Below, piece by piece: positions 1,257-62,846 of a stretch of 64,000 nucleotides of DNA. A model generated the notes under the pieces. That model saw nothing but the letters and a program-made list of their open reading frames with translations. It was not told the origin of the DNA and searched no databases. Made by a program: the position numbers and the translations under genes. Positions within the stretch are counted from its first letter, which is position 1; each line of letters opens with the position of its first letter. This stretch comes from Eledone cirrhosa (lineage: Eukaryota): positions 17,918,001 to 17,982,000 of the forward strand of contig OZ024758.1 in NCBI GenBank assembly GCA_964016885.1. The letters run 5' to 3'.

Positions 1257-1605
1257 CTATTAATAATGAGTTCAAAACTCAGGCAGTCCTTTACAATGAA
1301 ATAGCTCAAAGAAAGAAATATTTCTGAGCCGTGTAATACAAGTTAATATAAATTAATATATTTGATAAACACAAATACCAACATATCCGTGTTTGTATTG
1401 TAAATGACTAAGTTAGCTAGATTGAAATATACTAATTATAATAATACAGTTTGCCTGTCTCGATTTAAAATATTGATTTAATATTTTAAATCGAGACAGG
1501 CAAACTGTATTATTATAATTAGTATATTTCAATCTAGCTTACAATACAAACACGGATATGTTGGTATTTGTGTTTATCAAATATATTAATTTATATTAAC
1601 TTGTA
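1257..1605. mobile_element. Asymmetric fold-back element in (TA)n (second copy at 2841-3185)
   Basis: Arms ~1337-1474 and 1481-1605 are reverse complements. The left arm is ~80 nt longer and both ends abut TA tracts. No clear HHR core found. Confidence 0.7.
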
Positions 1606-1746
1606 TATATATATATATTTTTTTTTTATATATATATATATATATTTATATATATATATATATATATATATATATTTATATATATATATATATATATATT
1701 TATATATATATATATATATATATATATATATATATATATATATATA

Positions 1747-2173
1747 TGGAAAGTTATATTTAAATTGTTGGGTTACAACTAGTAAATATTAATAACTGAT
1801 ATAAAAGCACTCGACAAGTATTTGGAGTATATTTACGGTATTAAATAAATGGAAACTATATTTATAAAACCATATTTATTTCGTTATATATATTTCAGGG
1901 ATATCATATTAACAATATGCTATGCCTTCCTCAGACAAAATACAATATAAACAGTTTTATAGATAAATAGATTTGACATACCGTACAACATCGACTTGTA
2001 TTTGAAAATACAAGTCGATTTTGTACGGTATGTCAAATCTATTTATCTATAAAACTGTTTATATTGTATTTTGTCTGAGGAAGGCATAGCATATTGTTAA
2101 TATGATATCCCTGAAATATATATAACGAAATAAATATGGTTTTATAAATATAGTTTCCATTTATTTAATATCG
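1747..2173. mobile_element. Fold-back PLE-type mini-element, family A, HHR in each arm
   Basis: Arms ~1837-2002 and 2006-2173. Left arm ~90 nt longer, TA flanks, homologous to 22209-22599. Confidence 0.85.
2070..2129 (+). ncRNA. Type I hammerhead motif (mirror copy on minus strand at 1880-1939)
   Basis: ttgt-CTGAGGA-aggcatagcatatt/gtt/aatatgatatccct-GAAA-tatata-TA-acgaa. AUA triplet. Confidence 0.8.
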
Positions 2174-4738
2174 TATATATATATATATATATATATATAT
2201 ATATATATATATATATATATATATATATATATATATATATATATACATATATATATATATATATATATATATATATATATAGGTATATATAGATATAAAT
2301 ATATAAATATATATAGATATGAATATATACATATATATATAGATATAAATATATAGATATATATAGATATAAATATATAGATATATATAGATATAAATAT
2401 ACAGATACATATAGATATATAGATATAAATATATAGGTACACACATACATATATATATATATATATATATATATATATATATATATATATATATATATAT
2501 ACATATATATATATGTATGTATGTATGTACCTATATATTTATATCTATATATCTATATGTATCTGTATATTTATATCTATATATATCTATATATTTATAT
2601 CTATATATATCTATATATTTATATCTATATATATATGTATATATTCATATCTATATATATTTATATATTTATATCTATATATATATGTATATATTCATAT
2701 CTATATATATTTATATATTTATATCTATATATATATATATATATATATATATATATATATATATATATATATATATATATATATATATATATATATATAT
2801 ATATATATATAAAAATATATATATATATATATATATATATACAAGTTAATATAAATTAATATATTTGATAAACACAAATACCAACATATCCGTGTTTGTA
2901 TTGTAATCTAGATTGAAATATACTAATTATAATAATACAGTTTGCCTGTCTCGATTTAAAATATTAAATCAATATTTTAAATCGAGACAGGCAAACTGTA
3001 TTATTATAATTAGTATATTTCAATCTAGCTAACTTAGTCATTTACAATACAAACACGGATATGTTGGTATTTGTGTTTATCAAATATATTAATTTATATT
3101 AACTTGTATTACACGGCTCAGAAATATTTCTTTGAGCTATTTCATTGTAAAGGACTGCCTGAGTTTTGAACTCATTATTAATAGTATATATATATATATA
3201 TATATATATATATATACTGTATATATATGTTGTTATGATGTGCGTGACATATTTTTCGAGTACATTATGTTTTTTATCGTTTAAATACTCTTGTTTTTAG
3301 CGCCACTCAAGACAGATCCATTTCTAGCAATAGTTATGGTATGAAGACACATTTATTTAACACTGCTATAGGCTCTTAGAAATCCAGATTCAGAGATATA
3401 TTTCTGTTGACATTATTGCGGCGTATAATTTATATTATCGTGGGAAGGCCTATCGTTTCAATTAACTATGTACTATACTTGTTGAACCATATAAGATGGC
3501 ATGGTTTATATCCATTAAAAAAAAATGTATTCGTTAACCATACTAGATTATTTTCGTTTATCCCCTCTTTCGCTGTGATAATAAATATTATGTCGTATCT
3601 TATTTTTTCATCATACGCCTCTGTAGTGCGTTTGGTGTAGGGTTCGTGATCCGAAGTTTGTGGTGGGTTTTATTCCCTGATCCTGTGACGCGTTGTGAAC
3701 CAGAAAAAAGATCTCATATACTGGGAAACAGTTCAATCAGACGAAAATAAGATCCAGCGTTAGATTGGGGCTACCCTTAGGGTCAAAGGAAAATGAGTTA
3801 CAGCGGTATCTTGGAGCTATCCCTGCTAGGGACTCATGTTCTGTGAAAATGTTGGTTATTAAGGTGATGGTGTTTTAGAAAGTGTTTTATGTATTATATT
3901 AATGCTTAAGCAAATCTAAGCACAATGGTAAATGTGCCACTCTTCACCAGTATTCCTCATAGCTGAAAAGAACTTAAAAAACCTTCCCTTCTAAACATAC
4001 ATTTAAATATACCATTTCCGGTGTATTGAAAGTAGAAGAATGAATTTTACTTACTTTAATAACATTATTAATGAAATAACGAGGTAGAGTGCGATACGCA
4101 GAACATTTCACATTCAAGGCAAATGGATGCAGTAAAATTATCAATTCAAGTTAATATATTTAAATTAAGATTTTATAGGAATTCCTATTGTTGCGTAATT
4201 AATATCGATTGTTACTTTCAAAATATGAATAATGATAGTGATGCTGATAACTTCAATGATGACGATAATAAGAAGGATGAGAAGGAGATTTTTGTAAGCT
4301 AAAATGTCTAAGTTTTCAATTAATAAATATAATTAAAGTGACTTAAAACTGAATAGTTACACAAATTCAACATTCCTAAATGTATATATAGAGATATTCT
4401 AATTTCACAAATATATCATATATTAAAAATTTATATATCTACACATAACACACACATAAGGAGGAAAGCAGCGATTCTTTGCTTAAACTTTAATCTATTA
4501 TTTTAATAAATATTTGCTCTACGGTTCATATATATTTGATATATATTTATCCTTATTTATTATTATTACTATATATATATATATATATATATATATATAT
4601 ATATATAGAGAGAGAGAGAGAGAGAGAGAGAGAGAAAGAGAGAGAGAGAGAGTAATAGTAATAATTCATATATATATATATAGAGAGAGAGAGAGGGAGA
4701 GAGAGCGAGAGAGTAATAGTAATAATTCATGTGATTCC

Positions 4739-4793
4739 AAAGTTTCAGAAGATGCCATTAAGGGTGAAAGCAACGAGTCTTTGCTTAAACTTT
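4739..4793 (+). ncRNA. Hammerhead-like motif with CAGAAGA core
   Basis: aaagttt-CAGAAGA-tgccattaagggt-GAAA-gcaa(cgagtct)ttgc-TT-aaacttt. 7-bp stem I. Relatives at ~4465-4492 (3' half only) and 39152-39204 (minus). Confidence 0.65.
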
Positions 4794-5118
4794 AATCCGT
4801 TTTTATAATAAATATATATATATATATATATATATATATATGTGTGTGTGTGTGTGTGTGTGTGTGTGTGTGTGTGTGTGTGTGTGTGTGTGTGTGTATC
4901 CCGGGTTCAAGCAATTCTATTCTTGCAGAAGCCATTTCTATATATATATATATATATATTCATATATATATTCATATATATATATATATATATATATATA
5001 TATATATATATATATATATATATATATTCATATATATATTCATATATATATATATATATATATATATATATATATATATATATATATTCATATATATGTT
5101 CATATATATATATGTATA

Positions 5119-60948: not shown

Positions 60949-61759
60949 CGTATTTATTAACGTCGCTTTATCTCCATAATTAAACACCTCTTTTAATTAA
61001 CGTACATCTGCCACAGTGACTTGTTTGTTGTCTTCATATGTATTACAACTATTTCACTTATGTAGAATCGCGACGAGGTTTATTCTTTTCCAAGTAAATA
61101 TTTCTGTACACAGACTCCACTACCGAATGATGATTTAGCGTTACAAACTTTTGCTCTCAAATTTTTCGTCGCGTTTTCTAAAGCATCAAAAGTAATTGGC
61201 AGGATCATGAACTTGTCAAATTCTTTATTCGAGAAATTCAGAATTTCATAAAGTCGGCATAACTTTCAAAATGTTTTTAATTTATTTTATTATTTTATTA
61301 TTTATTTTTTTGTTTTGGGGGTTCTTGTATGAAATGCACATACAACGTCAATTAAAAAAAATGAACATTCGCATTTTCAAGAATGACAACAATATCCGGC
61401 TTGTTGTGATATATACCTCGTTTTGTGTGGAACAAGCACATAATATCCTCACTTCATCGTTTTCAAGTGATTGCATTTCTGCTACGAAATGGATGTAGAG
61501 CTAAATCTGTTGCAAACATTCCTGTGAATTATTGCAACAAATTTATTCTCTGTTAAACATTATGAACAAGGTCTTAGAATTCTGATAAAATTTAAGCTAG
61601 AATATCATCTCCTGTGACGTATCCTCTATATATGAACACACAGGCCTGTTTCATTCATGTGTGTTCATGTGGTGATACAATTCTTAATCTCTCTCTCTTC
61701 TCTGTCTGCCTATCTCTAACTATCTCTCTATCAGAATAAAAAAATATATATATATATAT

Positions 61760-61997
61760 AAGAACGAGTAGGACCCCGACGGCTGAGCTAAAGCCGTTTC
61801 GACAGCTAATTCTGGACTAAATGAACATTTTTTTTCCTGGTACATTTAGGTATATTTAATTCAGAATTAGCCGTCGAAACGGCTTGAGCTCAGCCGTCGG
61901 GGTCCTACTCGTTCCTATTATCCACTCTACTACCCTAAGTATTGAGTACTTTGGTGCGTTATGGTCCACCTGGTTCCTTACCACATTTCCTTCGTTA
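61760..61997. mobile_element. Fold-back family B, second copy
   Basis: Opposite orientation to 5119-5327, same outer ends, longer spacer, TA flanks. Confidence 0.85.
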
Positions 61998-62107
61998 TAT
62001 ATATATATATATATATTCTGATATATATATTCTGAATTGCCTCCTCTATTTTGTTTGTTTCATTTACTAACTATATATATATATATAATATATAAATATA
62101 TATATAA

Positions 62108-62516
62108 TATATAAGAACAAAAGATGGTTAAAAGAGTTCCATGTATTTTATTATGCGCATTTCAAAAAAAAATATCATCATGCAATAATATGTGTTTTCA
62201 TCAGATAAAACAGGAAGACATGATATGAAGGTTAAAAAACACTTGTGGATAGTTCAGTTTTAAATCAACAAATGAACTATCCACAAGTGTTTTTTAACCT
62301 TCATATCATGTCTTCCTGTTTTATCTGATGAAAACACAAATATTATTGCATGATGATATTTGTTTTTGAAATGCGCATAATAAAATACATGGAACTCTTT
62401 TAACCATCTTTTGTTCTTATATATTATGTATACTCCAGTCCTACAAACTGTAGAGTGCTTCTTATCCGATATCTGCATTGCTTTATTGTACTACAATAAA
62501 ACTCACCTCCTACATT
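62108..62516. mobile_element. Fold-back family E with HHRs at 62146-62210 (-) and 62319-62385 (+)
   Basis: Arms ~62108-62256 and 62273-62423, right arm ~90 nt longer. ttttat-CTGATGA-long AU stem-GAAA-tgcgca-TA-ataaaa. Confidence 0.85.
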
Positions 62517-62549
62517 ATATATATATATATATATATATATATATATATA

Positions 62550-62846
62550 TAGAAGTGGTTACACAACAGTTAGTTCACCATACCGAGAACAATTGTTTCA
62601 CCTTAGCGGATCATCAGCTCGGAATGTGCATGGTTTTAGGAACAGGAAGGACAACCGTACGAACGGTTCGTACGGTTGTCCTTCCTGTTCCTATACCCAT
62701 ACCCATTCCGAGCTGATGATCCGCTAAGGTGAAACAATTGTTCTCGGTATGGTGAACTAACTGTTGTGTAACCACTTCTACCTAACTCTTCCCATGGACT
62801 GAGTGCTCTACCACTACGGATATTACCTTCCAGTGTTCCACCACTA
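62550..62846. mobile_element. Fold-back family D, second copy, with HHRs at 62583-62622 (-) and 62708-62747 (+)
   Basis: Arms 62550-62663 and 62666-62780, right arm ~65 nt longer. ccgag-CTGATGA...GAAAcaattgTT-ctcgg. Confidence 0.87.

What the first reader, a model, noticed from the sequence alone, without database searches (positions are those of the whole stretch)
1257..62846. Fixed long-arm/short-arm geometry: short arms stop at an internal TA, suggesting twin priming on TA targets
Seen: in the well-preserved fold-backs one arm is ~40-95 nt longer. The short arm joins the microsatellite exactly where the long arm has an internal TA or TATA: aacttgTA 1605, atatcgTA 2173 and 22599, gttccTA 5327, tctttaTA 13459, cgtttaTA 21360, ttctTA ~62110, cacttcTA 62550. 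Independent copies of a family (1747 vs 22209; 5119 vs 61760) share both outer ends while their apices differ. Inference: both strands of a cut (TA)n target prime reverse transcription, one at the RNA 3' end and one at a fixed internal TA, and the two cDNAs join at a variable apex. This would explain the known PLE pseudo-LTR plus tail structure.
Basis: partly seen in the sequence, partly recalled or inferred. Interest (0 to 1): 0.75.

Follow-up and report, generated by a model that had tools for sequence, protein, structure and literature searches.

The report
Penelope elements primed from both ends
These mirror-image insertions in TA repeats are the ends of Penelope-type jumping genes, almost always with one long and one short arm ending at two fixed points, which likely means that both cut DNA ends start copying the element's RNA, each at its own internal site, a testable answer to how these elements insert.

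Summary
The geometry is real: all eight listed junctions check out (tails 44-91 nt). The fold-backs are inverted pseudo-LTR insertions of Penelope-like elements (PLEs): families B and G are Hydra-type, E is a canonical RT + GIY-YIG element. Copies taken in genome order end in two sharp classes, and 70 of 70 fully classed pairs are long+short (one long+long case in family F). Either arm can be the deeper (19 short, 10 long, 6 equal), and in 6 of 35 the arms do not overlap. This favours two primings over snap-back or copying of a hairpin. Three corrections. The long end is internal too; tandem copies read through it. A TA at the short end is enriched (22 of 26 families, null 25%) but not required (18 of 19 pairs in one subfamily). 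Apices vary but pile up near an initiator-like motif. The tail, inverted pLTR, TA targeting, two internal start sites and both-strand extension are published (Craig 2021; Frangieh 2024). One site per strand within an insertion was not found in print. The scan noted this before on other DNA of this genome.

The parts
1257..1603 (.). Fold-back, family A (parent is a 546-550-nt tandem unit, no coding parent seen); long arm left, tail 1257-1338, short end 1603
2842..3184 (.). Inverted duplicate of fold-back A inside a larger inverted duplication; tail 3107-3184
1748..2173 (.). Fold-back, family B1 (Hydra-type PLE); tail 1748-1835, short end 2173, apex near 1990-2005
2067..2132 (+). Minimal type I hammerhead-like motif in the short arm of B, about 45 nt before the short end; read by eye against a recalled consensus, not detected by Rfam
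   Evidence: sequence; one search found no Rfam match
1809..1828 (-). ACTC-loop-GAGT hairpin in the tail of B, 7 nt after the short site; similar motif in A, C, F, G
5121..5324 (.). Fold-back, family C; tail 5121-5200, short end 5324
12654..13455 (.). Fold-back, family D; tail 12654-12718, short end 13455
18669..21356 (.). Fold-back, family E (canonical C-terminal-EN PLE); arms 1082 nt at 99%, spacer owned by the long arm, tail 18669-18712
19247..20416 (-). Open frame with the RT C-terminal half and GIY-YIG endonuclease of family E
   Evidence: RVT_1 E 7.9e-11; GIY-YIG E 4.5e-5
22208..22598 (.). Fold-back, family B (other subfamily); tail 22208-22297; the short arm is the deeper and starts at the family's apex hot spot
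33402..33664 (.). Further fold-back, short end left meeting AT, 174-nt tail with ACTC
61761..61995 (.). Fold-back, family C; short end left, tail about 61916-61995
62107..62515 (.). Fold-back, family F; short end left, tail 62425-62515
62552..62844 (.). Fold-back, family G (Hydra-type PLE); short end left, tail 62779-62844

Best explanation
The fold-backs are head-to-head 3' ends of Penelope-like retroelements sitting in (TA)n, and each was likely written by two target-primed reverse transcriptions in one event, one from each cut strand, one starting at the long site and the other at the short site of the same source RNA. Shown: two fixed ends, one of each per insertion, both internal to the repeat unit, arms of independent depth, arms of the same subfamily. 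Inferred: a dimeric RT-endonuclease cuts both strands; the RNA-protein complex sets the two start positions, the short one 6-9 nt before a small ACTC-GAGT hairpin in most Hydra-type families, with a TA-like stretch that helps the primer pair but does not set the register. The two cDNAs stop independently, often by running off the RNA 5' end at an initiator-like motif in the 5' pLTR, and their 3' ends are joined through short microhomology or small templated inserts. Overlapping arms need strand displacement on one RNA, or the two pLTR copies of one transcript.
For: End classes in 30 genome-order hits per family: C 15 at +2 and 11 at +82; E 15 at +2 and 13 at +46 to +50; B, G and A alike. Pairs: 70 long+short, 8 short+long-stub, 0 long+long, 0 short+short, 4 with an odd partner end; 65 arms had no partner in view. 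A second sample from coordinate lists gave 24 long+short, 0 LL, 0 SS (it overlaps the first for some loci). Depth in 35 family-B events: short arm deeper 19, long 10, within 20 nt 6; in 6 the long arm stops before the short site. Multi-unit bodies end in either site (E L288-293, A L252-254). Arms share rare variants, e.g. L094 0 mismatches in 110 nt vs 5 to the nearest other copy. Apex microhomology of 2 nt or more in 11 of 17 direct joins vs 24% null, p 4e-4. In vitro, an anole PLE cuts and extends both strands and starts at two internal sites bounding the tail; a dimer is predicted (PMC11167929).
Against: One true long+long fold-back (family F, L317/318). One-sided deletions do occur in these palindromes (12 nt in window A; about 60 nt in L044 and L114), so some unequal depths may be later decay. 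18 of 35 apex calls were 'insertions', some caused by nearby SNPs, and the null is my own simulation. Frangieh saw no difference in start site between the strands, so what couples long with short is unexplained. The initiator reading rests on a 3-5-nt motif; no TSS data, no cap-derived extra G seen; families A and G show no sharp apex peak. Families D and E lack the ACTC-GAGT motif. No empty-site allele was seen.
Confidence: 0.7

Rival explanations
1. Snap-back: one cDNA primed at the long site folds back at the apex and copies itself; the second strand stops at the short site and joins the other flank; unequal depths come from later one-sided deletion.
For: Perfect palindromic apices with loops of 0-3 nt exist (L052, L085, L099). 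Arms are usually identical. It explains strict long+short pairing without further assumption. Arkhipova 2013 argued for self-priming from apex palindromes (PMC3846280, passages). One-sided deletions occur.
Against: Short arm deeper in 19 of 35, by up to kilobases; non-overlapping arms in 6 of 35. Short-only copies run from the short site to the apex hot spot and straight into TA (L081, L296). Multi-unit bodies end at the short site. The short site has no terminal TA match in the CATTG subfamily. It is an RT start site in vitro. Local snap-back probably contributes at some apices (L045).
Confidence: 0.13
2. One reading: one primer at the true RNA 3' end, one at an internal TA chosen by base pairing, as in L1 twin priming.
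For: TA/AT match at the short site in 22 of 26 clusters (null 25%, p 4e-10); mean 7-nt match 4.5 vs 2.8. 234 copies use a TA-matched register 2 nt further on. A source copy ending long+(TA)n could give an RNA ending in (UA)n.
Against: Tandem units read through the long end. The E long end has no TA match (CC|ATAT on parent CC|TTTC). L229 holds sequence from beyond it. 2060 short ends at CATTG|TATATATATA vs 2458 tail arms reading CATTGAATA and only 293 reading CATTGTATA; 18 of 19 pairs with a GAATA tail use the non-TA site, though bases 2-5 there still match the repeat.
Confidence: 0.08
3. Two independent RNPs with separate RNAs (dual priming), each picking either site.
For: It explains overlapping arms and independent depth without displacement; one LL case.
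Against: It predicts LL and SS in about half of the pairs; 0 of 70 and 0 of 24 seen. No pair with arms from different subfamilies among 44; the 7 with over 10 mismatches have arms shorter than the 110-nt window or an insert.
Confidence: 0.06
4. Copying of one pre-formed hairpin, a DNA-type MITE, or an assembly artefact.
For: Some whole fold-backs recur (L225 = L250, L048 like L104, window 1257 = 2842), but with their flanks.
Against: Apices differ copy by copy from tens of nt to kilobases; ends are asymmetric; arms are 3' ends of RT-coding tandem units; arms carry age-related mismatches.
Confidence: 0.03

Closest known systems
Hydra clade of C-terminal EN+ PLEs (Craig et al. 2021, PMC8557442; sections 3, 6, 7, 11, 15 and passages read)
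   Same: RWK-type, DKT and CxCX5C motifs, no CCHH core, (TA)n targets, partial tandems, inverted 5'-truncated copy, tail at either end.
   Different: Tails here are 65-98 nt in most families (44 in E) vs 30-40 nt described. Craig ascribes the tail to endonuclease-mediated resolution; the one-long-one-short rule is not quantified there.
PAc (Poseidon, Anolis) internal initiation (Frangieh et al. 2024, PMC11167929; parts 1-2 of 4 read, two supplement PDFs gave almost no text)
   Same: Both strands cut and extended, two internal start sites bounding the tail, AT-rich target, uncleaved RNA as template, predicted dimer.
   Different: Another clade. The start site is reported as not homologous to the target, while here most families have a TA-like match. 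No one-site-per-strand coupling and no model of the inverted junction in the parts read.
L1 twin and dual priming (as described in Meyer et al. 2010, PMC2837659; passages read)
   Same: Second strand primes an inverted cDNA; the two cDNAs join with or without microhomology.
   Different: L1 uses the poly(A) end plus a variable internal site and gives non-overlapping pieces with a deletion. Here both sites are fixed and internal, arms mostly overlap, and inversion is the common outcome.
Penelope of Drosophila virilis and Adineta PLEs (PMC2377424, PMC3846280; passages read)
   Same: pLTR holds the promoter and start site; Inr-like TCACT noted in the Adineta pLTR; inverted pLTR with optional tail.
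   Different: Self-priming on an antisense template was proposed; no apex hot spot at the initiator in the passages read.

Membership tests
EN+ Penelope-like elements | RT plus GIY-YIG endonuclease in one ORF | tested here: met
   E: Pfam RVT_1 and GIY-YIG, 900-aa frame in L337. B: RT and GIY-YIG-type motifs by eye in L084; no Pfam hit at E 0.01.
EN+ Penelope-like elements | Partial tandems forming pLTRs, inverted 5'-truncated copy, optional tail | tested here: met
   Units of 3747 nt (B), 3126 nt (E), about 547 nt (A).
EN+ Penelope-like elements | Hammerhead ribozyme in the pLTR | tested here: inconclusive
   Motifs seen by eye in B, C, E against a recalled consensus; Rfam gathering found none in window, L030, L023, L008.
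EN+ Penelope-like elements | Target-site duplication | not testable with these tools
   Both flanks are (TA)n.
Hydra clade | RWK motif, DKT, CxCX5C linker, no CCHH in EN | tested here: met
   B: RWR, DKT, CNC-5-C, one Cys in the EN core. G: CSC-5-C, no Cys pair in the core.
Hydra clade | Phylogenetic placement of the RT | not tested
   No tree built; Craig's sequence files were not opened.
Hydra clade | Motifs in family E | tested here: not met
   E has GPKF, DKG and CxxC in the EN core: a canonical PLE, clade not resolved.
Hydra clade | Coding parent for A, C, D, F | tested here: inconclusive
   A is a short non-coding tandem unit; no ORF tied to C; D not searched; F only 9 variant hits. A, C and F share the tail hairpin.
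L1-type twin priming | First primer at the RNA 3' end | tested here: not met
   Long end is internal in the unit; the RNA end itself was not measured.
L1-type twin priming | Two cDNAs from opposite strands, inverted, joined by microhomology | tested here: met
   Inferred from independent depth and apex microhomology.
L1-type twin priming | Variable internal site chosen by pairing; non-overlapping pieces | tested here: not met
   Site is fixed; arms overlap in 29 of 35 events.
DNA-type MITE / foldback transposon | Equal terminal inverted repeats and fixed interior | tested here: not met
   Asymmetric ends and variable apex.

The most novel reading that the evidence does not exclude
PLEs integrate by obligatory asymmetric twin priming: one RT-endonuclease dimer on one uncleaved RNA feeds each cut strand a different fixed start site, the short one set by a telomerase-like module (short primer-alignment stretch next to a protein-bound hairpin). 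Many arms are run-off cDNAs of the 5' pLTR ending at the transcription start, and no conventional second-strand synthesis is needed. This would explain tail, inverted pLTR and fold-back stubs as one reaction shared by Hydra-type and canonical clades.
Probability: 0.4. Interest if true: 0.72.

Novelty: new variant of a known kind. Interest (0 to 1): 0.52.

Why it matters
How PLEs form their tandem and inverted structures and their tail is named as an open problem (Craig 2021, section 15). The one in vitro study leaves the steps after initiation unvalidated (Frangieh 2024). The genomic rule found here, one long and one short start per insertion with free depth, turns this into specific tests with an existing assay. 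These insertions are abundant (14,037 and 15,592 exact hits of single 24-25-mers in this 3.0-Gb genome) and seed long palindromes inside TA repeats. PLE RTs are the sister group of telomerase, so a hairpin-set start site with a short alignment stretch would bear on RT evolution.

Tried and rejected
The first DNA search used the long arm as query and is biased to long ends and to an apex past 243 nt; it was not used for counts. BLAST to one reference missed diverged B subfamilies, so ends were read directly. Rfam: no hammerhead at gathering score. RNA runs: no RNA holder listed. Contigs of four DNA runs laid on 19900-20600 did not show the window's apex joint; this says nothing either way. Empty-site alleles could not be tested. 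An apex peak at the predicted hammerhead cut of B (depth about 137) and a cap-derived extra G were looked for by eye and not seen. Symmetric 'LL' hits L157, L211, L325, L250 and window 1257-3184 are stacks of two insertions or duplications. Three of 29 clusters were dropped before the TA test because their tails began with a TA run. MFE folding recovered the ACTC-GAGT stem only in some tails; no covariation test was run. The family F search found 9 variant copies, not the window's own. Family D was not searched. Literature searches found no paper applying twin priming to PLEs; subscription papers such as Arkhipova 2006 and Evgen'ev & Arkhipova 2005 were not seen and may bear on novelty. The retrozyme preprint (10.64898/2026.07.22.740005, part 1 of 5 read) added nothing on ends.
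Full report
Setting. The window is G000:C19:17918001-17982000 of a 3.0-Gb animal genome, 33% GC and rich in (TA)n.

Observation. A de novo scan of the window for inverted arms between TA arrays recovered all eight listed cases and 61761. Tails are 44-91 nt. In each listed case the long arm reads TA where the short arm meets the array. The chance per junction is about 0.27, so 7 independent families give p about 1e-4. 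2842-3184 is a duplicate of 1257-1603 inside a larger inverted duplication (6 mismatches in 263 unique nt). 33402-33664 meets AT and has a 174-nt tail.

What they are. 18669-21356 holds an open frame with RVT_1 and GIY-YIG. Its parent is a 3126-nt tandem unit with GPKF, DKG and a CxxC endonuclease core, a canonical PLE. The parent of 1748-2173 is a 3747-nt tandem unit whose frames show RWR, DKT, CxCX5C and no CCHH core, the motifs that Craig et al. give for the Hydra clade (PMC8557442 section 11); Pfam did not hit it. G has the same linker and EN type. A is a 546-550-nt tandem unit with no coding parent seen. Parents of C, D and F were not resolved. Single exact patterns hit 14,037 (B), 15,592 (C), 5,718 (G), 509 (A) and 712 (E) places.

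Ends. The first 30 hits in genome order per family, anchored inside the short site, fall into two classes: C 15 at +2 and 13 at +59 to +82; E 15 at +2 and 13 at +46 to +50; G 10 at +3 to +11 and 17 at +70 to +87; A 14 at +4 to +12 and 10 at +84 to +100; B 19 at 0 to +9 and 9 at +89 to +100. The rest are run-on or odd. Pairing arms within loci L031-060, L081-120, L151-210, L251-310 and nine longer refetches gave 70 long+short, 8 short+long-stub, 0 long+long, 0 short+short, 4 with an odd partner end, and 65 arms with no partner in view; at least one event (L048/L104) is probably counted twice. Coordinate lists on C1 to 154.7 Mb gave 24 long+short, 0 LL, 0 SS. One real LL fold-back turned up in family F.

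The long end is internal. Tandem copies read through it into the ORF start (B; E) or the next unit (A; one G copy). In E the junction is mostly CC|ATAT on a parent reading CC|TTTC, so there is no TA match. L229 carries sense sequence from 1-74 nt beyond the long site between its arms, so that template ran past it.

The TA. Over all loci fetched (L001-L339 and the window), 144 asymmetric rows (not fully de-duplicated) formed 29 clusters; 3 were dropped. 22 of 26 match the repeat by 2 nt or more at the short site (null 25%), and the first 7 nt match 4.5 vs 2.8. But in the CATTG subfamily of B, 2458 tail arms read GAATA and 293 read GTATA, while 2060 short ends join at G|TATATATATA and 234 at the TA-matched register 2 nt on. 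Among pairs with a GAATA tail, 18 of 19 use the non-TA site; bases 2-5 still match the repeat, so pairing with a mismatched last base is possible. In A, B, C, F and G the site lies 6-9 nt before an (A/G)CTC-loop-GAG(T/C) motif; D and E lack it. I infer that position is set by the RNP and that the TA-like stretch aids priming.

Two primings. From 73 long-end rows of B1 I took the 35 with both arms resolved; the others were single arms, tandem junctions, ran off the fetched stretch, had a diverged partner or were duplicates. The short-side arm is deeper in 19, the long in 10, and they are within 20 nt in 6; in 4 of the 35 the partner's outer end lay outside the stretch or was truncated. In 6 the long arm stops before the short site, so the arms share no sequence. 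E shows the same (L281, L287, L303). A single cDNA folding back from the long arm cannot make these without later one-sided deletion. Such deletions exist, which keeps that rival alive at low odds. Arms of a pair belong to one subfamily (44 pairs). 17 of 35 apices were direct joins, 11 with 2-7 nt microhomology (null 24%, p 4e-4); 18 had inserted or unresolved letters, some templated from nearby.

Apex. It differs between copies but is not flat. In B, 14 of 70 arms end at depth 268-286, at a sense TCACT. In E, 6 of 16 arms under 300 nt end within 4 nt at TCAGC; in C, 38 of 54 end within 14 nt around TTAGT; A and G are broad. PLE transcription starts in the pLTR (PMC2377424; PMC8557442) and an Inr-like TCACT was noted in an Adineta pLTR. 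Run-off at the RNA 5' end is my inference; the motif is short and no RNA data were available.

Comparison. Inverted pLTR, tail at either end and (TA)n bias are described. Both-strand cleavage and extension, two internal start sites bounding the tail and a predicted dimer are shown for PAc. L1 twin priming uses the poly(A) end and a variable internal site. It works like twin priming but fails two of that mechanism's defining features. The one-site-per-strand coupling, independent depths and initiator-like apex peak were not found in print; older subscription reviews were not seen. Earlier notes of this scan report the same system on other pieces of this genome; a word search for the apex-initiator reading found none.

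Verdict. Observation confirmed; interpretation partly supported. Known elements, new variant reading of their insertion mechanism, confidence 0.7, interest 0.52.

Noticed in passing
window 898-1748 and 2696-3491: Inverted duplication of about 850 nt around the B insertion and a TA/TAGA array; it carries fold-back A twice, with 6 mismatches in 263 unique nt. Similar whole-insertion inverted duplicates: L022/L023, L250.
   Followed up: partly
L253/254, L271/272, L279/280: Family A is a 546-550-nt tandem unit with the same two ends, retrozyme-like and apparently non-autonomous.
   Followed up: partly
L317/L318: True long+long fold-back of family F with unrelated flanks.
   Followed up: yes
L096; C1:112659442/112659717 (L245): Tail-to-tail arrangements of B arms, opposite to the usual head-to-head.
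   Followed up: no
L306: E short arm folds back, repeats a short piece, and ends in the long end of family C: a possible cross-family joint.
   Followed up: no
L131, L267, L096, L224: Another TA-flanked fold-back family with near-symmetric ends; unclassified.
   Followed up: no
window 55143-60526: LINE with ORF1-like frames and an APE + RT frame of 883 aa continuing in a second frame (L1/Tx1-like by recall).
   Followed up: no
window 7847-8977 and 9103-10023: C-terminal pieces of two non-LTR retrotransposon ORFs with restriction-like endonuclease motifs (by recall).
   Followed up: no
window 6581-6905, 26315-26492, 27201-27649, 45555-45728, 47843-48546, 52563-53149 and others: A dispersed repeat of about 170-200 nt in over 15 copies, twice as inverted pairs (6673-6905, 27231-27578).
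   Followed up: no
window 17993-18157 and 32284-32448: Two copies of a 165-nt element next to TA arrays with a minimal hammerhead-like core, one arm only.
   Followed up: no
window 10956-11150, 22016-22175, 39594-39802, 39234-39582/42470-42824: Older or partial members: a fold-back with a G-like tail, a decayed C-like copy, a G copy with a 44-nt palindrome, and two TA-flanked copies of another family.
   Followed up: partly
window 22751-25690: Minisatellite of 60-66-nt units built on CA repeats.
   Followed up: no
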